DNA of 64,000 bases from Escherichia phage VEc33, in the sequence record NC_048818.1; one strand, written 5' to 3'. Shown piece by piece: positions 3,598-35,815 of the stretch. The notes under the pieces are model-generated. The model did not search any database and was not told the origin of the DNA. It saw only the letters and a list, made by a program, of their open reading frames with translations. The translations under genes and the position numbers were made by a program. Every line of letters begins with the position of its first letter. Within the stretch, counting starts at the first letter, position 1.

Positions 3598-3676
3598 TGG
3601 CAAACCTACTAGGACTCGAACCTAGACCGTACGGTTTTAGAGACCGACATGCTGTCCAGTAACACTCTAGGAATGC
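3598..3676 (-). ncRNA. tRNA-like element with anticodon-type stem-loop CGGU-CUCUAAA-ACCG (anticodon position CUA)
   Basis: T-arm CTAGG-TTCGAGT-CCTAG and 3' CCA present, but no canonical acceptor pairing found by hand; either pseudo-tRNA or non-canonical tRNA. Confidence 0.35.
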
Positions 3677-4817: not shown

Positions 4818-5006
4818 TTAGTCAATTACTTTTGAGGCTTCAAGGTAGTCGATATAGTGTATGTTTTCTACCGTAATCATATAATCTGCCACTTTATCCA
4901 TAGCTTGGGCTTCAGAGGTAGCTCTGGCTAACCTATATCCTTTTTTATATTCATCCTGGTATTCTCTATCTTGGATAAACACAACATAAACTATATATAG
5001 ATCCAT
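4818..5006 (-). CDS. hypothetical protein
   Basis: 62 aa ORF. Confidence 0.4.
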   Translation of the reverse strand: MDLYIVYVVFIQDREYQDEYKKGYRLARATSEAQAMDKVADYMITVENIHYIDYLEASKVID

Positions 5007-5023
5007 TTGTTACCTCTATTTAA

Positions 5024-5101
5024 TTTGGTGGCTCCCCGAGGATTCGAACCTACGTACCTTCCGGTTATGAGCCGGGTGCTCATACCATATGAGCTTGAGA
5101 A
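5024..5101 (-). tRNA. tRNA-Met-type (anticodon CAU; loop CUCAUAA)
   Basis: RC: acceptor GGTTCTC/GGGAGCC (two G-U pairs), D-arm GCTC-ATATGGTAT-GAGC, anticodon stem CCGG/CCGG, TTCGAAT T-loop, CCA. Confidence 0.6.
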
Positions 5102-5219: not shown

Positions 5220-5738
5220 TTAGAAATTTAGCTTCATAGCAAGAAAATTTTTCAAGTTTTCGGTAGACATCTCATCTACGTCTACAGGAGAAACAAAGCC
5301 GTTTAATTTTCTAGCAAATTTTTCACCCGCAGGATCATTATCCCCGACAGCTACCAATTTAAAAGGTAATAATTTCAGTTGCTTTAATAACGCTTTTCCT
5401 GGAGAAGAACCCAACATTGCTAGGGCTGGATAACCAGCGTTATGTAACGCAACTGCCTTAAATACAGATTCAGCGATCAATACTACTTTTTCATCTCCAT
5501 TGAGAGTTTCTAGTCCCCATACACACTGGGTAGTAGAATAAGTAAAGTATTTAGCTTCAAAAGGGCACTTACCATGACCTTTTGGAGCAGAAGGATTATA
5601 AGTTTGGTAGCCCCTCAACATCCCAGAGAAATCATATAACGGGACTGTTAGCCATCCTTCCGGACTTAACCAGCAATGATATTTTTCTGTATCAAATCCT
5701 CTAGATAAGAGGTGCTGTGTTAGCTCATCAACATTCAT
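5220..5738 (-). CDS. Toprim-domain protein (primase/topoisomerase-like fold)
   Basis: 172 aa; conserved Glu in VVLIAESVF and DxD in VAVGDNDPAGEKF. Confidence 0.5.
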   Translation of the reverse strand: MNVDELTQHLLSRGFDTEKYHCWLSPEGWLTVPLYDFSGMLRGYQTYNPSAPKGHGKCPFEAKYFTYSTTQCVWGLETLNGDEKVVLIAESVFKAVALHNAGYPALAMLGSSPGKALLKQLKLLPFKLVAVGDNDPAGEKFARKLNGFVSPVDVDEMSTENLKNFLAMKLNF

Positions 5739-5799: not shown

Positions 5800-5915
5800 T
5801 CAAATTTTTTAACTTTTTAGAGGAAAATCATAGGGCACTTAAGGGTAGCAGATAAGTGGTGAGGACCAAAATTTGTGACCCCACTAAAAATCCGGGGGCA
5901 ATTTTTAAAGACCCC

Positions 5916-5944
5916 TTGACATTTTCGCTGGGGTAGTGTAAAGT
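5916..5944 (+). promoter_or_regulatory. strong sigma70 promoter (TTGACA, extended -10 TGnTAAAGT) for the plus-strand cassette
   Basis: TTGACATTTTCGC box at 5916; same -35 context recurs at 21943 and 34125. Confidence 0.5.
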
Positions 5945-6006
5945 ATATGTTATGGATGAGTGATCAAAGAGACACACATTTTCTATATACTAGGAGGTGT
6001 CAAAAA

Positions 6007-6978
6007 ATGACAGAAGAAGTAGCTAAGAGTCCTGAAACCGTCGCTAGCGTAGCAGCAGAACTGCATCGTCACGAGGAATCAGATAAGAAAAAGTGGGAGA
6101 AGGTCAGAGCCTACGAAGAAAAACATCGTGTTCACGATGAAGAAGATGATGATGAACATTGTCATAAATATGGAAAACATAAAATGCAAGAACCAGTAAA
6201 CGTATTCACTAGTGGCTTCCCTGGCCTACTGGGTGGTTACCCAGCAAACGCAAGTGCTTTCGGTGGTGAAGGTATGGGACTATTCGGAGCTATCCTAATC
6301 GGTGCTCTATTAACAGGCGGATTTGGTGGTTTTGGTGGTTTTGGCCGTGGTGCTGGCGTTGCCGCTGAAGGGACTGCTGTGGACGCGATCCTTTCTAACC
6401 AAGATACTGCAAGTATTCTAGCTGCAATCAATACTACTCGTACAGAAGCTAACCAGGGCACTGGGGCTGTTCTAAGCGCAGTAAACGGTGTGGGAGCTGC
6501 TCAAGCTGCTAGCACTCAGCAAGTTCTGACTACTATCTACGGTACAGGTGCTAATCTGTCAAACCAGATCTGTGCTGAAACTCGTAACGTTATTCAGGGT
6601 CAGTTCGATCTTTCTCGTCAGATGGATCAATCTTTCGCTGCTAACCAGATCGCACGTGCTCAAGATAAATTTGACTCTGCTCAGATTGCTTTCCAGCAGT
6701 CTATTCAGACCAATAACCAGTTTGCCGCTGTTCAGGCTCAGATGTGTGCTAACCAGAATGCTATCGAACGTCAGCTTGCCGAATGTTGCTGTGAGCTTCA
6801 GACTGCAATCGCTGGTGTAACTACTGCACGTATCCAGGACGAACTGAATGAATGCCGTCTGCGTGAAGCAATCGCTGCAGGTAGCGGTGCTAACGGTCAG
6901 GTAATTAATCAAATCGCTGTAAGTCTTGGTGCTATCACTCAGACTCTGGCTGGTCTGCAGGCTAAACTGCCGGCTTAA
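6007..6978 (+). CDS. low-complexity protein: His/acidic N-terminus, Gly-rich hydrophobic segment, Ala/Gln/Asn-rich region with Cys cluster
   Basis: ATG 6007 after TAGGAGGTG RBS; GLFGAILIGALLTGGFGGFGGFG; ECCCEL; GC-richer, codon usage of a highly expressed gene; opposite strand to neighbours. Confidence 0.55.
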   Translation: MTEEVAKSPETVASVAAELHRHEESDKKKWEKVRAYEEKHRVHDEEDDDEHCHKYGKHKMQEPVNVFTSGFPGLLGGYPANASAFGGEGMGLFGAILIGALLTGGFGGFGGFGRGAGVAAEGTAVDAILSNQDTASILAAINTTRTEANQGTGAVLSAVNGVGAAQAASTQQVLTTIYGTGANLSNQICAETRNVIQGQFDLSRQMDQSFAANQIARAQDKFDSAQIAFQQSIQTNNQFAAVQAQMCANQNAIERQLAECCCELQTAIAGVTTARIQDELNECRLREAIAAGSGANGQVINQIAVSLGAITQTLAGLQAKLPA

Positions 6979-6999
6979 TATTAAGGGGAGGAGCCCATT

Positions 7000-7416
7000 A
7001 TGAGTAAATATGGTTTTGTAAATAACGGACTTAATCAAAGTATGGGCTCCCAGCAGCCCGTTCCGGGACTGGATAACCCTTACCTACAACAGTTGCAACA
7101 GCGTTTAGCAGAAGCGCAACAGATGCAGCAACAACTCCAGCAAAACCCTGGAAGTGTGAGTCCTATGCAAATGATGCAGCAAATGAGCGGGCAGTCGCAA
7201 ATGCCTCAACAAATGCAGCAACAGGTGCCTCAGCAGCAAGTTCAGCAGCAAACCCAACAACCGCAGGTTTCTGCGGAAGGACAGGCAGTACTAGCCCTTT
7301 TCGAAGACTTCGCAAAGACAGAGGATGGGAAGCAGCTTGTATCACTTATGGGTAAGTTTAATAGCTTCTGCCAAAGCCAAGTTGCAAAAGCTCAAAATGG
7401 TGGTAATAACTCCTAA
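7000..7416 (+). CDS. Gln/Met-rich low-complexity protein
   Basis: 138 aa; RBS AAGGGGAGGAG; QQMQQQLQQNPGSVSPMQMMQQMSGQSQMPQQMQQQ. Confidence 0.55.
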   Translation: MSKYGFVNNGLNQSMGSQQPVPGLDNPYLQQLQQRLAEAQQMQQQLQQNPGSVSPMQMMQQMSGQSQMPQQMQQQVPQQQVQQQTQQPQVSAEGQAVLALFEDFAKTEDGKQLVSLMGKFNSFCQSQVAKAQNGGNNS

Positions 7417-7425
7417 GGAGGAATT

Positions 7426-7620
7426 ATGTGTTGCAGAAAATCTGTTTCGTGCTGCCCAATGCCTGTAGCACGTTGTTGCTCTCCAGCAATGTTTACGCAA
7501 ATACCGGCGTTCAATCCGTTTGCCTTTAAGCCTACTCTTATCCTGCCCCCTAGAGTAGATTTTCAGTCAAGATTGGCCTCCCGTATGGGTGGTTGCTGTA
7601 ACAAGAGTATATGGTTCTAA
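7426..7620 (+). CDS. small Cys-rich protein (CC motifs)
   Basis: 64 aa; RBS AAGGAGG; MCCRKSVSCCPMPVARCCSP...GGCCNK; followed by terminator. Confidence 0.5.
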   Translation: MCCRKSVSCCPMPVARCCSPAMFTQIPAFNPFAFKPTLILPPRVDFQSRLASRMGGCCNKSIWF

Positions 7621-7633
7621 AGAACCAAACAAT

Positions 7634-7672
7634 AAAGCCCCTAGTCGAAAGACTTAGGGGCTTTTTCTTTTG
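7634..7672 (+). terminator. rho-independent terminator of the plus-strand cassette
   Basis: hairpin AAGCCCCTAGTC-GAAA-GACTTAGGGGCTT followed by TTTTCTTTT. Confidence 0.7.
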
Positions 7673-7675
7673 CCT

Positions 7676-7716
7676 TAAATACAGAAAAGCCCGCGCTCTC
7701 GGAGGAAACGCGGGCT
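7676..7716 (-). terminator. rho-independent terminator after the SPFH gene
   Basis: hairpin AAGCCCGCG...CGCGGGCTT followed by U-run on minus strand; convergent with 7634-7672. Confidence 0.6.
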
Positions 7717-7740
7717 TGGTTCGAAGATTACGTGTAACTA

Positions 7741-8688
7741 TTACTTGTTACGCATATCCATGATCATTTGACCATCGTAACCAGTACCTACTACAGTCTG
7801 AGGCACACCACCTTGATATTTCTGAGCACGAATCATATCAACTTCCAGTTGTTTCCAACGAATCATCTCAGGAGTAATGGTACGTTGCAGTGCGGCGTTA
7901 GCTTCAGCTTCTTTCTTAGCTGCGTACAGTTTAGCATCTGCGTCACGTTCATTAGCGATAGCTTGGTTGTTGCGAGCTTCACGATCTGCTTCTGCTTGTT
8001 TAACTTTTTGCTGTGCTTCCTGTTCAACACGAGCTAATTCAGCTTTAGCAGCATTAGCCTGTTCTTCACGAACTTTGGTATTCTGTACCTGTTCCATGAT
8101 TACCGGTGGCAAAGTAATATCCTGAAGGAATACCTGCTTAACTGTGTAACCATATGGGCGTGCGTACTCTTCAACTTCCTGTTGAATTGCAGTTTGCAAT
8201 TGAGCCTGAATTTTAGCATCAAACAAATCTTGTGCTTTAGGTACAGACTTACCAAACTCACGAATAGTAGACAGTAATTTTTCAGTTACATATTTGTCTA
8301 ACGCTTGATCCTGAGTACCTGCATTAATACGGTTAATCGGTGCCTTAGAACCATCAAACTGCAACATAACAGTCAGATCAACAGTGGATTTAAACTTATC
8401 CTGACTAGGAACCTGAAGTTTATCTAATTTTACAGCAATATCTTTAGTACTAAAAGTATCGAAAGAAGCAAAAGGATTTACAATATGAAAGCCGGGTAAT
8501 ACTGGATTAGGGTCTACTTTACCCAGGAATGTTTGAGTTTTAACCGTACCATCAGAAACAATAGTATATGAATTAAAAGCTAGAATTAAACCTGCTAAAC
8601 CAACTACAGCACCAATCCCCCAACGTTTAATAGTACGAATTACTTTCTGCTCAGAAGTTAGTTCTTTCATATTTTTAGTATTAAACAT
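7741..8688 (-). CDS. SPFH/band-7 (HflC/prohibitin-like) membrane protein
   Basis: 315 aa; N-terminal TM WGIGAVVGLAGLILAF, SPFH core, Ala/Glu/Gln-rich coiled-coil. Confidence 0.65.
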   Translation of the reverse strand: MFNTKNMKELTSEQKVIRTIKRWGIGAVVGLAGLILAFNSYTIVSDGTVKTQTFLGKVDPNPVLPGFHIVNPFASFDTFSTKDIAVKLDKLQVPSQDKFKSTVDLTVMLQFDGSKAPINRINAGTQDQALDKYVTEKLLSTIREFGKSVPKAQDLFDAKIQAQLQTAIQQEVEEYARPYGYTVKQVFLQDITLPPVIMEQVQNTKVREEQANAAKAELARVEQEAQQKVKQAEADREARNNQAIANERDADAKLYAAKKEAEANAALQRTITPEMIRWKQLEVDMIRAQKYQGGVPQTVVGTGYDGQMIMDMRNK

Positions 8689-34275: not shown

Positions 34276-35055
34276 ATGAAAATCGAAATTCCAACACAAT
34301 GTCCCTCTTGTGGTTCTAAGCTAGATCTTGTCAACGGACAATTATTCTGTCGGAATAAGTCCAACTGCCCAGCGCAATCAAGTAAGTTAATTGAGAACTT
34401 CTGTACAAAAATGAAGTTAAAGGGCTTTGGCCCAAAAACTATTGAGAAGCTGGAGCTGACGAAGATTTCAGAACTATTTTACCTAACCGAAGAAGATTTG
34501 GTTAGAGCCGTGGGTAGCAAGGTTGCCGCTAAGTTAATTAGCGAATTAAATACTAAAGTTCGCGGAGACATTGACTTTGGTTCAGTTCTCGGTTCTTTAG
34601 GAATCCCTCTAATTGGAGAGGTTGCAGCAAAGAAATTATCCCAAAATTGCACTAGCTTCCATGATGTGAAGGCTGACGGCAAAGCTGGAGAAAATTATAA
34701 AGCCTGGCTAAATTCCCCACAAGGCAAGGATGTTATCGAATTACCGTGGAAATTCACAACGGGTATTAAAGGTGCTAAAGCTGAGGTCATCATCACTGAT
34801 GGTCTAGTAGCCCAACCAAACGGAATAACGGTATGTATTACCGGATCTTTGCAAGATTTTGCAAATAGAACGGATGCAACAAACTATTTAGAAGGTCTAG
34901 GATATACGGTTAAGAAATCCGTTACCAAAGACGTCAAATACCTAATCTGTGAGGATGAATCGAAGCGTTCTTCCTCATCTTATAAGAAAGCCGAAACGAA
35001 TGGGATAGAAATCCTGTCGATTAAAGAACTATTGGAGAAAAATAATAATGTCTAA
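34276..35055 (+). CDS. ligA: NAD-dependent DNA ligase, C-terminal fragment (Zn finger, HhH, BRCT-like)
   Basis: 259 aa from ATG 34276; CPSCGSKL...CRNKSNCPAQ zinc-finger motif directly continuing the N-fragment. Confidence 0.8.
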   Translation: MKIEIPTQCPSCGSKLDLVNGQLFCRNKSNCPAQSSKLIENFCTKMKLKGFGPKTIEKLELTKISELFYLTEEDLVRAVGSKVAAKLISELNTKVRGDIDFGSVLGSLGIPLIGEVAAKKLSQNCTSFHDVKADGKAGENYKAWLNSPQGKDVIELPWKFTTGIKGAKAEVIITDGLVAQPNGITVCITGSLQDFANRTDATNYLEGLGYTVKKSVTKDVKYLICEDESKRSSSSYKKAETNGIEILSIKELLEKNNNV

Positions 35056-35815
35056 ACTGAACTGGAACGTAGAAGGTGTAACCGAGTCTCTGAAAGCAAA
35101 AGCCACTGCCCTGGGTGTTGCTGTAATCTCTCAAGAACAAGTAGCTGCTATTGCTGCTGAACTGGCTGCTGAAACTGGCAAAGACGTTACCGCTCGCTCT
35201 GTTGGCTCTAAGCTGCGTAAAGAAGGTTTTGAAGTACAGAAAGCTAACGAAGTACAGAAATCCCCGTGGACTCCTGAGCAGGAAGCTGAACTGGTTGATT
35301 TCCTGAACGCTCATGCTGGTCAGTATACCTATGCTGAAATCGCTGCTGCTGTAGCTGGTGGTCAGTTCGGTGCTAAGCAGGTACAGGGTAAGATTCTGAG
35401 TCTGGAAATGACCGCTTCTGTTAAACCAACCGAAAAAGCTGCTGCTGTTCGTTCCTTCACTCCGGATGAAGAAACTGATTTTGTTAATCAGGTTGTTGCT
35501 GGTGCTACTATTGAAGCTATCGCTGCTCACTTCGGTCGTAATATCAAGCAGATCCGCGGTAAAGCTCTGAGCCTGCTTCGTGAAGGTCGTATCGCCGCTA
35601 TGCCGGTACAGGAAACCTCAAGTGCTAAAACTCGTGAAGATCTGTTAGAAGGTCTGGATCTGGTTAACATGACTGTTGCTGAGATCGCTGAGAAAACTGG
35701 TAAATCTGAGCGCGGTGTTAAATCTATGCTGTCTCGTCGTGGTCTGGTTGCTAAGGACTATGATGGTGCCGCTAAGCGTGCTAAACTGGATGCAAAAGCT
35801 GCGGCTGCTGAATAA
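35048..35815 (+). CDS. Ala-rich hypothetical protein with high-expression codon usage (possible abundant DNA-binding protein)
   Basis: 255 aa; strong bias to GCT/CTG/CGT/GGT codons; internal repeats (VISQEQVAAIAAELAAETGK / VAGATIEAIAAHFGRNIK). Confidence 0.5.
   Translation: MSKLNWNVEGVTESLKAKATALGVAVISQEQVAAIAAELAAETGKDVTARSVGSKLRKEGFEVQKANEVQKSPWTPEQEAELVDFLNAHAGQYTYAEIAAAVAGGQFGAKQVQGKILSLEMTASVKPTEKAAAVRSFTPDEETDFVNQVVAGATIEAIAAHFGRNIKQIRGKALSLLREGRIAAMPVQETSSAKTREDLLEGLDLVNMTVAEIAEKTGKSERGVKSMLSRRGLVAKDYDGAAKRAKLDAKAAAAE

What the first reader, a model, noticed from the sequence alone, without database searches (positions are those of the whole stretch)
5890..7680. Opposite-strand three-gene cassette encoding Gly-, Gln/Met- and Cys-rich low-complexity proteins
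Inside a 21-kb block that is otherwise entirely minus-strand, three plus-strand genes (6007-6978, 7000-7416, 7426-7620) form a self-contained unit. It has its own near-consensus promoter (TTGACA at 5916), strong Shine-Dalgarno sites and a textbook terminator (7634-7672) that converges on the terminator of the neighbouring SPFH gene. The products are extreme in composition. Protein 1 has a His/acidic N-terminus (HCHKYGKHK), a Gly-rich hydrophobic segment (GLFGAILIGALLTGGFGGFGGFG), then a long Ala/Gln/Asn/Thr-rich region with an ECCCEL Cys cluster. Protein 2 is a Gln/Met-rich polymer (QMQQQLQQ...PMQMMQQMSGQSQMPQQMQQQ). Protein 3 is a 64-aa peptide with four CC doublets. GC content and codon usage look like those of highly expressed genes and differ from the AT-rich neighbours. 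I cannot assign any of them to a known family. As speculation only: His/Met/Cys richness suggests metal binding, and the Q-rich sequence plus membrane anchor suggests a condensate- or envelope-associated assembly.
Basis: partly seen in the sequence, partly recalled or inferred. Interest (0 to 1): 0.72.

Follow-up and report, generated by a model that had tools for sequence, protein, structure and literature searches.

The report
Mobile three-gene Cys-motif phage cassette
The three plus-strand genes are real and are the already-annotated but uncharacterised T5.077-T5.079 unit of a T5-like phage: a dispensable, self-contained cassette that also occurs in two unrelated phage types and whose main protein belongs to a large, phage-only family marked by an invariant Cys-Cys-Cys motif, with function still unknown.

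Summary
Observation confirmed. Genes at 6007-6978, 7000-7416 and 7426-7620 form one transcription unit with a promoter (TTGACA-17-TAAAGT, 5916-5944), three Shine-Dalgarno sites and a strong terminator (7634-7672). They equal T5.077/078/079 of phage T5 and the 326/138/64-aa ORFs of BF23, annotated since 2004 with promoter P12 and a bidirectional terminator, all as hypothetical proteins. All three are under purifying selection. The unit is dispensable: about half of T5-like genomes lack it, DT57C carries a deletion scar, and a published T5 knock-down screen scores all three 'Not Fit'. New here: the same cassette, in the same order, occurs in virulent Pseudomonas phage KPP23 and in a lambdoid phage between Q and the lysis genes, each with a terminator after gene 3. 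Protein 1 has an N-terminal helix, a variable acidic/His linker, a Gly-zipper hydrophobic segment and a ~154-residue helix bearing an invariant CCC. It belongs to a superfamily with no Pfam, NCBIfam, PADLOC, PDB or fold match and almost no members in cellular genomes. His and Met richness are not conserved; the Cys motifs are. Best guess (low confidence): an abundant early, envelope-associated, Cys-linked complex used in phage-phage or phage-host conflict. Function remains unknown.

The parts
5916..5944 (+). Sigma-70 early promoter (-35 TTGACA 5916-5921, 17-nt spacer, -10 TAAAGT 5939-5944); equals T5/BF23 promoter P12
   Evidence: 10 of 12 matches; annotated P12 at the homologous place in T5 and BF23
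5992..5997 (+). Shine-Dalgarno AGGAGG of gene 1
   Evidence: annotated RBS in BF23
6007..6978 (+). Gene 1 (323 aa; T5.077 / BF23 ORF 326aa; phrog_8119), the CCC-motif protein. Layout: helix aa 12-44; variable acidic/His linker aa 45-60; conserved MQEPVNVF motif aa 60-67; Gly-zipper hydrophobic segment aa 88-115; helix aa 124-160; long helix aa 166-319
   Evidence: family alignment; dN/dS 0.11-0.20; AF2 pLDDT 72; KD19 maximum 1.72 at aa 91-109; CAI 0.48
6268..6351 (+). Codons for the Gly-zipper hydrophobic segment (GEGMGLFGAILIGALLTGGFGGFGGFGR), a candidate membrane anchor
   Evidence: (58 of 109 remote relatives have an equivalent stretch)
6784..6792 (+). TGT TGC TGT = invariant Cys260-Cys261-Cys262 (motif Q-L-A-E-C-C-C-E-L), the signature of the superfamily
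   Evidence: invariant in 19 of 19; 76 of 109 remote hits; at least 90% in 75 sequences
7000..7416 (+). Gene 2 (138 aa; T5.078; phrog_7894). Conserved N-terminal helix (NPYLQQLQQRLAEAQ), variable Q/M/P-rich linker, and conserved C-terminal domain ALFEDFAKTEDGKQLVSLMGKFNSFCQS with one invariant Cys
   Evidence: orthologs in KPP23, lambdoid and divergent T5-like phages, E 1e-21 to 1e-28; dN/dS 0.06-0.20
7426..7620 (+). Gene 3 (64 aa; T5.079; no PHROG). Peptide starting MCC with four CC doublets and a Pro/Phe-rich centre; no signal peptide or lipobox
   Evidence: (identical in T5, BF23 and HdH2); syntenic Cys peptides in KPP23 and the lambdoid phage
7634..7672 (+). Rho-independent terminator of the cassette (stem 7634-7664 plus U-run); annotated in T5 as an efficient bidirectional terminator
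   Evidence: dG -21.4, z -4.8
7687..7717 (-). Convergent terminator hairpin of the SPFH gene. It contains the GCGC (about 7693-7696) of the T5 'major nick 3, 32.6%' site. It is retained in phages that lack the cassette, so it is not part of the mobile unit
5853..7590 (.). Extent of the segment missing in DT57C (promoter, genes 1-2 and most of gene 3). The last ~30 nt of gene 3 remain there as a scar, so this is the approximate extent of the dispensable unit

Best explanation
Shown: this is an autonomous, early-transcribed, three-gene accessory cassette (T5.077-079) that moves between phage genomes and is not needed for plaque formation on laboratory hosts. Predicted from sequence and model: gene 1 encodes an abundant protein with a conserved N-terminal helix, a Gly-zipper hydrophobic anchor and a helical rod of about 23 nm carrying an invariant Cys-Cys-Cys. 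Genes 2 and 3 encode soluble partners that also carry conserved cysteines (one Cys in protein 2; CC doublets in protein 3). Inferred mechanism: host RNA polymerase transcribes the unit from P12 soon after second-step DNA transfer. Protein 1 inserts into, or docks on, the inner membrane through the Gly-zipper and oligomerises through its long helix. Proteins 2 and 3 are recruited through thiol-mediated contacts (shared metal-thiolate or disulfide links) with the CCC site. The resulting envelope-associated assembly gives a conditional advantage in conflict, either by excluding competing phages or by blunting an envelope-linked host defence. It does not take part in replication, virion assembly or lysis. 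My confidence is about 0.9 that it is a real, expressed, mobile accessory module, about 0.5 that the three proteins form one membrane-associated complex, and about 0.3 that its role is exclusion or anti-defence.
For: Unit structure: promoter, SD sites and terminator (T5/BF23 annotation). Real genes: dN/dS of 0.35 or less. Co-inheritance of the three genes in the same order on three unrelated backbones: T5-like phages, virulent Pseudomonas phage KPP23/RSP, and a lambdoid phage between Q and the lysis genes on the opposite strand. A terminator follows gene 3 in each. Dispensable and variable: only 216 of 405 matching T5-like records carry it; DT57C has a deletion scar; Epseptimavirus chee130_1 lacks it, with NadR/PnuC adjoining the SPFH gene there. 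CRISPRi-ART scores T5.077, T5.078 and T5.079 as 'Not Fit' (PMC11879866 supplement). Conflict context: it abuts T5.076/ORF75, the anti-retron gene at the edge of the T5 tRNA-rich/anti-defence region. Not structural: absent from the KPP23 virion mass-spectrometry list, and driven by an early promoter in T5. Membrane anchor: KD19 of 1.72 at aa 91-109, with equivalent Gly-zipper stretches in 58 of 109 remote relatives. Rod: AF2 helix 166-319 with pLDDT up to 97. Abundance: gene 1 CAI in the 92nd percentile. Cys as the functional core: CCC is invariant across the superfamily, and all three proteins keep Cys in all backbones. Phage-restricted: no close homolog in 185,579 reference genomes, and the CCC pattern was confirmed only on phage-like MAG contigs.
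Against: No experiment or homology ties the proteins to any function. PADLOC gave nothing, though it covers host defence and not phage counter-defence. Known superinfection-exclusion proteins are usually single small proteins, not three-gene sets with a 23-nm rod. High codon adaptation suggests a stoichiometric, structural role, which is unusual for exclusion factors. The hydrophobic core is only about 13 residues between Gly-rich flanks, so true membrane spanning is uncertain. Many remote CCC proteins have no hydrophobic segment at all. Proteins 2 and 3 have no export signal, so if the rod is periplasmic the proposed Cys contacts with them cannot form. Physical interaction of the three proteins is inferred only from synteny. 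A sigma-70 promoter was found only in the T5-like copy. Azam et al. did not attribute any anti-retron activity to this region. Whether their fragment 9 covers the cassette was not verified.
Confidence: 0.35

Rival explanations
1. Thiophilic-metal or redox module. The CCC site and the CC doublets bind Zn(II), Cu(I), an Fe-S cluster or another soft metal, or act as a thiol buffer. This would sequester or supply metal, or quench an electrophile or oxidant, in the infected cell.
For: Invariant CCC and conserved CC doublets, with a conserved Cys in all three proteins. Vicinal Cys pairs are the metal ligands in metallothioneins, ArsD and MerT/MerF/MerA (established knowledge, not tested here). His-rich tracts (HHYHHHHHEH) occur in some T5-like protein 1 variants, and a His-rich protein sits in the eiAU/Seuratvirus module. 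Proteins 2 and 3 lack export signals, so they sit in the reducing cytoplasm where thiols are free.
Against: His and Met tracts are not conserved. There is no match to any metal-binding family or fold. Protein 3 is 12.5% Cys and rich in Phe/Pro/Trp, unlike classical metallothioneins. A 154-residue helix and a membrane anchor are not needed for simple chelation. There is no obvious benefit to a lytic phage, and knock-down has no fitness effect in rich medium.
Confidence: 0.2
2. Lysis-associated membrane device (spanin-like, or a lysis-timing or membrane-fusion factor). Protein 1 would act like an i-spanin or class-I-fusogen-like rod with a Gly-rich fusion-peptide-like segment and Cys staples, and protein 3 like a small Pro-rich partner.
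For: The architecture resembles Rz (N-terminal anchor, coiled coil, intermolecular Cys) with Rz1 (about 60 aa, Pro-rich, Cys). The rod length of about 23 nm is close to the width of the periplasm (the width is from general knowledge). The cassette lies next to holin/lysozyme/Rz in the lambdoid phage and near an M15 endolysin in L008.
Against: Protein 3 has no signal peptide or lipobox. The cassette is antisense to the lysis genes in the lambdoid phage, which already has its own Rz-family gene (PF03245). In T5 it is driven by an early promoter about 10 kb away from the lysis genes. The genes next to the CCC gene in eiAU and Seuratvirus are not lysis genes. The cassette is dispensable.
Confidence: 0.1
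3. Cytoplasmic scaffold or condensate. The Q-rich protein 2 and the long helix of protein 1 would build a filament or phase-separated body that organises early infection.
For: Protein 2 is 27.5% Gln. Protein 1 is predicted to be a long rod with FG-like Gly/Phe repeats and is probably abundant.
Against: The Q-rich tract is replaced by a Pro-rich or shorter linker in the lambdoid, KPP23 and L005 orthologs, so composition-driven condensation is not a conserved property. Heptad and hendecad periodicity of the long helix is not significant against shuffles. The cassette is dispensable.
Confidence: 0.1
4. Virion-associated or assembly protein, suggested by the position of remote CCC genes right after tail genes in eiAU, Seuratvirus and phiWae15.
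For: In eiAU and STP-SP5 the phrog_9288 CCC gene directly follows tail protein genes.
Against: The T5 copy has an early sigma-70 promoter in the tRNA/early region. KPP23 virion mass spectrometry did not detect ORF072-074. It is dispensable in T5 and missing from about half of T5-like phages.
Confidence: 0.05

Closest known systems
Phage 'morons' (autonomous accessory transcription units such as lambda bor/lom and the HK97/HK022 morons, as defined by Hendrix and colleagues)
   Same: Own promoter and terminator; inserted between genes that are adjacent in related phages; compositionally distinct; variable presence; dispensable; found in the Q-to-lysis moron slot of a lambdoid phage.
   Different: It has three co-transcribed genes instead of one. 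It is best represented in virulent phages (T5-like, KPP23), so prophage expression is not the main setting. Gene 1 is codon-adapted to its T5 host genome and not obviously foreign.
Two-component spanins (lambda Rz/Rz1)
   Same: A larger protein with an N-proximal hydrophobic anchor, a long helix and functionally placed Cys, paired with a ~60-aa Pro-rich, Cys-containing peptide.
   Different: No lipobox or signal peptide in protein 3; a third Q-rich protein; early expression; not embedded in or co-oriented with lysis genes; no sequence similarity.
Early-expressed superinfection-exclusion proteins (T4 Imm/Sp, T5 Llp, Cor)
   Same: Early expression from host-type promoters, predicted envelope association, dispensability, patchy distribution and placement among accessory genes.
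   Different: Those are single small proteins with defined targets (for example Llp blocks FhuA). Here there are three proteins, a 23-nm helix and conserved Cys motifs, and no exclusion phenotype is known.
Vicinal-cysteine metal binders (metallothioneins, ArsD, MerT/MerF)
   Same: CC and CCC motifs and a small Cys/Pro-rich peptide.
   Different: No homology; lower Cys density; aromatic-rich; attached to a long helical rod and a membrane anchor.
Class I viral fusion proteins (influenza HA2, retroviral TM with the CX6CC motif)
   Same: A Gly-rich hydrophobic segment (GLFGAI..., identical over six residues to the start of the HA2 fusion peptide) followed by a very long helix with a Cys cluster.
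   Different: The segment is internal, after about 90 residues, and not at a cleaved N-terminus. There is no C-terminal transmembrane anchor and no homology. The six-residue identity is most likely coincidence. This is a recalled resemblance, not a test.
PHROG families 8119, 7894, 9288 and 16490 (unknown function)
   Same: Proteins 1 and 2 are full-length members of phrog_8119 and phrog_7894. Remote CCC proteins fall in phrog_9288 and phrog_16490.
   Different: PHROGs keeps these as separate unknown families. The profile search here links them through the CCC motif and Gly-zipper.

Membership tests
T5.077-T5.079 orthologous cassette of Tequintavirus/Epseptimavirus | Collinear DNA identity with T5/BF23 between the T5.076 (primase-like) and T5.080 (SPFH) genes | tested here: met
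   95-96% DNA identity over 100% of window 5800-7750 to T5, BF23 and others; annotations
Moron (autonomous accessory transcription unit) | Own promoter and own terminator | tested here: met
   P12 and the bidirectional terminator annotated in T5/BF23. A terminator was also found in the KPP23 and lambdoid copies, but no consensus promoter there
Moron (autonomous accessory transcription unit) | Present or absent between genes that are adjacent in related phages | tested here: met
   DT57C has T5.076 and T5.080 homologs 211 bp apart with a gene 3 remnant; 216 of 405 records carry the full cassette
Moron (autonomous accessory transcription unit) | Nucleotide composition different from the surrounding genome | tested here: inconclusive
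   GC is 0.47 against 0.39, but gene 1's GC3 (0.33) matches the phage, so its excess is due to amino-acid content. Genes 2 and 3 have GC3 of 0.43-0.45
Moron (autonomous accessory transcription unit) | Expression from the repressed prophage | not testable with these tools
   T5 and KPP23 are virulent; the lambdoid copy is known only from metagenomic contigs
Two-component spanin (Rz/Rz1) | o-spanin with a lipoprotein signal peptide and lipobox Cys | tested here: not met
   Protein 3 starts MCCRKSVSCCPMP, with no hydrophobic signal (maximum KD19 0.85)
Two-component spanin (Rz/Rz1) | Located in, and co-transcribed with, the lysis cassette | tested here: not met
   Early promoter in the T5 tRNA region. 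The cassette is antisense to holin/lysozyme/Rz in the lambdoid phage, which has its own PF03245 gene
Two-component spanin (Rz/Rz1) | i-spanin type II topology with a periplasmic coiled coil | tested here: inconclusive
   A hydrophobic segment is present (KD19 1.72), but its core is only ~13 aa and it follows a 90-aa acidic N-terminal part. Topology cannot be determined
Known anti-phage defence system proteins (PADLOC-DB) | Significant HMM match | tested here: not met
   No family at E of 1 or less for any of the three proteins
Any Pfam / NCBIfam family or solved structure | Match above the curated cut-off, or E below 1e-3 | tested here: not met
   PDB profile search, 0 hits; Foldseek PDB, 0 hits; BFVD, none significant
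Metallothionein-like or vicinal-Cys metal binders | Stoichiometric metal binding by Cys clusters | not testable with these tools
   Only the motif resemblance (CC, CCC) is seen, with no homology
Metallothionein-like or vicinal-Cys metal binders | Very high Cys content with few aromatic residues | tested here: not met
   Protein 3 is 12.5% Cys and 9.4% Phe and contains a Trp; protein 1 has 7 Cys in 323 aa
'CCC-motif' phage superfamily (proposed here; includes phrog_8119, 9288 and 16490) | Motif [QK]-[LIM]-[ASE]-[ED]-C-C-C-[EDS]-x-K/Q inside a long predicted helix | tested here: met
   Window QLAECCCELQ at aa 256-265. The motif occurs in 76 of 109 remote profile hits and is nearly invariant in A4 and A5
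'CCC-motif' phage superfamily (proposed here; includes phrog_8119, 9288 and 16490) | N-proximal Gly-zipper hydrophobic segment (a subset of the family) | tested here: met
   aa 88-115; an equivalent stretch occurs in 58 of 109 remote hits, 30 of which also have CCC

The most novel reading that the evidence does not exclude
The cassette is the best-studied representative of a previously unrecognised, phage-restricted class of envelope-active machines. In this reading a Gly-zipper-anchored helical rod of about 23 nm is stapled or metallated at an invariant Cys-Cys-Cys site and works with a Q/P-linker adaptor and a CC-doublet peptide. Together they would form a new type of superinfection-exclusion or counter-defence system that spreads horizontally among virulent and temperate phages of Gram-negative bacteria, with distant relatives in phages of Clostridia and Bacteroidota.
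Probability: 0.2. Interest if true: 0.75.

Novelty: new variant of a known kind. Interest (0 to 1): 0.48.

Why it matters
T5 is a model phage, and this cassette sits beside its recently defined anti-defence region, yet three well-expressed, selected genes there have no function. Four results turn an anonymous 'hypothetical protein' trio into a defined target. The trio travels as a unit between unrelated phages. It is dispensable in the laboratory. It is essentially confined to phages. It belongs to a large family with an invariant CCC signature. Natural isogenic contrasts already exist (T5 versus DT57C), and knock-down tools for T5 are published. If the role is exclusion or counter-defence, it would add a structurally unusual member to the phage conflict repertoire and would annotate hundreds of genes in phage and metagenome databases. 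If the role is metal or redox handling, it would be a new kind of phage auxiliary function. The analysis also corrects annotation errors that are spreading: the label 'cAMP-dependent protein kinase catalytic subunit' on protein 2, a wrong reading frame for KPP23 ORF072, and gene 3 left unannotated in many genomes.

Tried and rejected
(1) The first AF2 run, with 19 close homologs, gave pLDDT 50 and was discarded. The 75-sequence superfamily alignment gave pLDDT 72. (2) Fold searches of the model found nothing: 0 hits in PDB and none significant in BFVD, as expected for an extended helix. (3) I first thought the 140-aa Q-rich protein downstream of the CCC gene in viral contig L008 was a protein 2 homolog. 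With default filters blastp finds nothing, so that link is rejected. Likewise the Seuratvirus peptide MCGNACC... shares only its N-terminal look with protein 3. (4) I suspected the genes after the CCC gene in eiAU and Seuratvirus were a lysis cassette. Pfam and PHROGs show unknown-function families instead. (5) Heptad or 11-residue periodicity of the long helix is not significant against shuffles (243 and 451 of 2000), so 'coiled coil' is not demonstrated. (6) Literature: no paper names T5.077-079 or T5p075-077 in its main text. HIDEN-SEQ and the transposon-mutagenesis papers do not cover T5-like phages. The stored Bas33 RNA-seq supplement is truncated, and I did not establish whether Bas33 carries the cassette, so I have no direct expression data. 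(7) Prophage search: no close homolog in 185,579 reference genomes. (8) The lambdoid backbone has no close DNA relative among cultured phages, and its host is unknown. (9) Spurious-ORF and non-coding explanations are rejected by dN/dS and cross-backbone synteny.


Full report
OBSERVATION. The window is a T5-like phage (Tequintavirus). The segment 5800-7750 is 95-96% identical over its full length to T5, BF23 and many relatives. The three plus-strand ORFs exist exactly as described: 6007-6978 (323 aa), 7000-7416 (138 aa) and 7426-7620 (64 aa). Each ATG is preceded by an AGGAGG-type ribosome-binding site. A TTGACA-17 nt-TAAAGT site lies at 5916-5944. A hairpin with a U-run lies at 7634-7672, with dG -21.4 kcal/mol, z = -4.8, and none of 200 shuffles folding as well. 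It faces the SPFH gene's own terminator hairpin at 7687-7717 on the other strand. All other ORFs of 110 aa or more, and all 14 tRNA genes, between 1 and about 21.6 kb are on the minus strand. GC is 0.46-0.48 in the cassette against 0.39 for the window.

The codon-usage claim is only partly right. Gene 1 has a CAI of 0.48, in the 92nd percentile of window ORFs, and its C-terminal two-thirds reach 0.55. Genes 2 and 3 are average at 0.25 and 0.23. Gene 1's GC3 is low (0.33), so its extra GC reflects Ala/Gly codons and not foreign DNA. The Sharp-Li weights used for CAI were typed in from memory.

ALREADY ANNOTATED. The unit is T5.077, T5.078 and T5.079 in T5 record AY543070, and 'ORF 326aa/138aa/64aa' in BF23 record AJ604530. 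Both records annotate promoter P12, ribosome-binding sites and an 'efficient bidirectional rho-independent terminator'. Both also place a major single-strand interruption of T5 DNA (nick 3, 32.6%) just downstream. All three products are 'hypothetical'. A second T5 record labels protein 2 'cAMP-dependent protein kinase catalytic subunit'. Nothing supports that label, yet it has spread to other genomes.

REAL GENES. Pairwise dN/dS among T5-like phages is 0.11-0.20 for gene 1, 0.06-0.20 for gene 2 and 0.19-0.35 for gene 3, which has few sites. The 64-aa peptide is identical in the window, T5, BF23 and HdH2. Gene 3 is often left unannotated, for example in Stitch, GSW6, STG2 and HdH2, but it is intact in all of those.

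A MOBILE THREE-GENE MODULE. tblastn with protein 1 found a homolog in Pseudomonas phage KPP23 (62.8 kb), which is not T5-like, is reported as virulent and looks more GC-rich in the stretch read (not measured). There, ORF074 (320 aa) has the Gly-zipper, the CCC and the conserved C-terminus. ORF073 (143 aa) is a clear protein 2 ortholog (E 1e-21 to 1e-31). An unannotated frame directly downstream encodes MCCNQPVPQCCGPF...RGRCCKKFDCCS, 60 aa with four CC doublets. The deposited ORF072 is called in the wrong frame.

A third backbone is a lambdoid phage known from metagenomic contigs. It has NinB, NinG and the Q antiterminator on one side and holin, lysozyme, Rz and terminase on the other. The cassette sits between Q and the lysis genes on the opposite strand, as genes of 316 and 139 aa plus an uncalled 64-aa peptide MCGCCPKIVPQCCG...PCC...GKCCGR. 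A divergent 114-kb T5-like contig keeps the trio as 310, 107 and 63 aa. In the KPP23 and lambdoid copies a strong hairpin-plus-T terminator follows gene 3. The three genes are therefore inherited and transferred as a unit.

DISPENSABLE AND VARIABLE. Of 405 phage records that match the segment, only 216 carry most of it. The rest match only the last ~130-160 bp. In DT57C the T5.076 and T5.080 homologs are 211 bp apart. Alignment shows the left flank running to about window 5852 and then joining the last ~30 nt of gene 3. That is a deletion scar that removed the promoter, genes 1-2, most of gene 3 and the first terminator hairpin. In Epseptimavirus chee130_1 the cassette is absent, and NadR and PnuC lie next to the SPFH gene. 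In Stitch, GSW6 and STG2 the cassette lies between NadR and SPFH. The published CRISPRi-ART screen of T5 lists T5.077, T5.078 and T5.079 as 'unknown function' and 'Not Fit' (PMC11879866, supplementary files 8 and 16). The same table marks the adjacent T5.076 as an anti-defence gene. It is the anti-retron ORF75/Rad of Azam et al., which lies in their ~8-kb tRNA-rich/'anti-defense island'. The cassette thus sits at the edge of an accessory, conflict-related region. I did not verify whether it lies inside the deletions described there.

THE PROTEINS. An alignment of 19 protein 1 homologs, down to 37% identity, shows these features:
- a conserved N-terminal helix;
- a hypervariable acidic/His tract, absent in several lineages and expanded to HHYHHHHHEH in others;
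- a conserved MQEPVNVF motif;
- a Gly-zipper hydrophobic segment;
- invariant C247 and C260-C262;
- a nearly invariant C-terminus (NGQVINQIAVSLGAITQTLAALQAK).

With a 75-sequence superfamily alignment, AlphaFold2 gives mean pLDDT 72. It predicts helix 12-44 (pLDDT above 90), disorder over 45-93, a short hydrophobic helix at 94-102, a helix at 124-160, and one continuous helix at 166-319 (pLDDT 88-97 over 180-260), which is about 23 nm long if straight. Hydropathy peaks at 1.72 over aa 91-109. Protein 2 has a conserved N-terminal helix, a linker whose composition varies by lineage (Q/M-rich in T5-like phages, P-rich in the lambdoid phage), and a conserved C-terminal domain with one invariant Cys. 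Protein 3 keeps its M-C start, its CC doublets (two to four) and a Pro/Phe-rich centre. It has no signal peptide. His and Met richness are therefore lineage-specific, while the cysteines are the conserved chemistry.

A PHAGE-RESTRICTED SUPERFAMILY. An exhaustive profile search of 1.84 billion representative proteins gave 112 hits at E of 1e-3 or better. Of the 109 more distant ones, 76 contain the motif L-[SA]-[RK]-Q-[LIM]-[AS]-[ED]-C-C-C-[ED]-[LIVM]-K, 58 have a Gly-zipper hydrophobic stretch, and 30 have both. None has a Pfam family or a source name. Cultured phages with remote members include Edwardsiella eiAU, Aeromonas phiWae15, Salmonella Seuratvirus STP-SP5 and Klebsiella P-K7R. In eiAU, STP-SP5 and phiWae15 the gene (phrog_9288) heads another conserved unknown-function module, and in eiAU and STP-SP5 it directly follows the tail protein genes.

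In 185,579 reference bacterial and archaeal genomes there is no close homolog. The CCC pattern was confirmed at only three places, all on MAG contigs. The two long ones (48.8 and 68.4 kb; Flavobacterium and Clostridia bins) carry phage genes: a virion protein and a phage DNA polymerase on one, NrdD and phrog_16490 on the other. Pfam, NCBIfam, PADLOC, a PDB profile search and Foldseek against PDB and BFVD found nothing.

MECHANISM. Shown: an autonomous, early-promoter unit; three co-inherited genes under selection; dispensability; phage restriction; conserved Cys in all three products. Predicted: a membrane-active Gly-zipper, a long rod, and high abundance of protein 1. Inferred: the three proteins form one envelope-associated complex, held or activated through the CCC site and the CC doublets. 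That complex would give a conditional advantage in conflict, by excluding other phages or countering an envelope-linked defence. The support for this is the moron-like behaviour, early expression, the neighbourhood of anti-defence genes, the patchy distribution, and the lack of any role in core functions. KPP23 virion mass spectrometry did not detect ORF072-074. I put about 0.3 on this function.

Rivals are a Cys-based metal or redox module (0.2), a lysis or membrane-fusion device (0.1; no lipobox, wrong strand and timing), a scaffold or condensate (0.1; the Q-richness is not conserved), and a virion-associated role (0.05). No tool available here can settle topology, oligomer state or partners.

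VERDICT. It is an already catalogued but uncharacterised part of T5-like genomes, non-essential in the laboratory. What is new is its mobility as a trio across unrelated phages, its deletion polymorphism, and its membership of a large phage-only CCC-motif superfamily. Interest is moderate: a well-defined, testable piece of phage dark matter, not a demonstrated new mechanism.

Noticed in passing
window 3598-3674 (-): ARAGORN calls a tRNA with anticodon CTA (CUA, which reads the amber stop; labelled 'tRNA-Pyl') between tRNA-Phe and tRNA-Glu. T5 has tRNA-Trp(CCA) in that slot, and the two sequences differ substantially (anticodon loop CTCTAAA against CTCCAAA). It is a possible natural amber-suppressor tRNA in this T5-like phage.
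   Followed up: partly
window 7687-7717 (GCGC at about 7693-7696): The SPFH-side terminator hairpin contains the consensus of the T5 'major single-strand interruption' (nick 3, 32.6% of the genome) annotated in T5 and BF23. The hairpin and site are kept in phages that have lost the cassette.
   Followed up: partly
window 5220-5738 (-): The Toprim/primase-like neighbour is the T5.076 homolog. The CRISPRi-ART re-annotation lists it as anti-defence (subverts retron defence), citing Azam et al., where it is ORF75/Rad. It marks the edge of the tRNA-rich/'anti-defense island'.
   Followed up: partly
window about 7590-7620; L014 (DT57C) about 5001-5052: Cassette-less T5-like phages keep the last ~30 nt of gene 3, and their matches begin at recurrent query positions (window about 7590 or 7618). 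This suggests a shared ancestral deletion spread by recombination, or a preferred breakpoint.
   Followed up: partly
L004 5969-6151 (KPP23, AB910392); also phage RSP MK803322: GenBank ORF072 of KPP23 is called in the wrong frame. The conserved product is the 60-aa MCC...CC peptide. In phage RSP the same stretch lies under an 'alpha/beta hydrolase like protein' annotation.
   Followed up: yes
L002 4191-4607 (AY587007) and derived records: Protein 2 is annotated 'cAMP-dependent protein kinase catalytic subunit' (kapc). There is no kinase signal in Pfam or NCBIfam, and the label has spread to ESCO30, ESCO40, EH3, UTK0010 and others.
   Followed up: yes
protein 1 aa 45-60 (window 6139-6186) and homologs P0007, P0009, P0012, P0013: The acidic/His linker is hypervariable in length. 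Some T5-like phages carry runs such as HHYHHHHHEHYEEDDEDDEEEDEHEH, while others lack the tract entirely.
   Followed up: partly
L013 3116-4850; L016-L018 left flanks: In Epseptimaviruses a NadR (NMN adenylyltransferase/ribosylnicotinamide kinase) gene, with PnuC in chee130_1, occupies the position next to the cassette slot. This points to an accessory-gene hotspot upstream of the SPFH gene.
   Followed up: no
L015 506-1491 (Salmonella phage INF11): Gene 1 is annotated as two overlapping CDSs (506-709 and 694-1491). This suggests a frameshift, either a pseudogene or a sequencing error. Gene 3 there has an altered, extended C-terminus.
   Followed up: no
L010 4839-6693 (eiAU), L012 3068-5114 (STP-SP5), L011 3599-5480 (phiWae15): A second conserved unknown-function module is headed by a remote CCC protein: phrog_9288, then phrog_9157 (His-rich N-terminus), phrog_8329 and phrog_7239. 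In STP-SP5 it is followed by a 69-aa Cys/Pro-rich peptide, MCGNACC....
   Followed up: partly
window 35048-35815 (+): This ORF has by far the highest E. coli codon adaptation in the window (CAI 0.71), so it is presumably a very highly expressed gene. I did not identify it.
   Followed up: no
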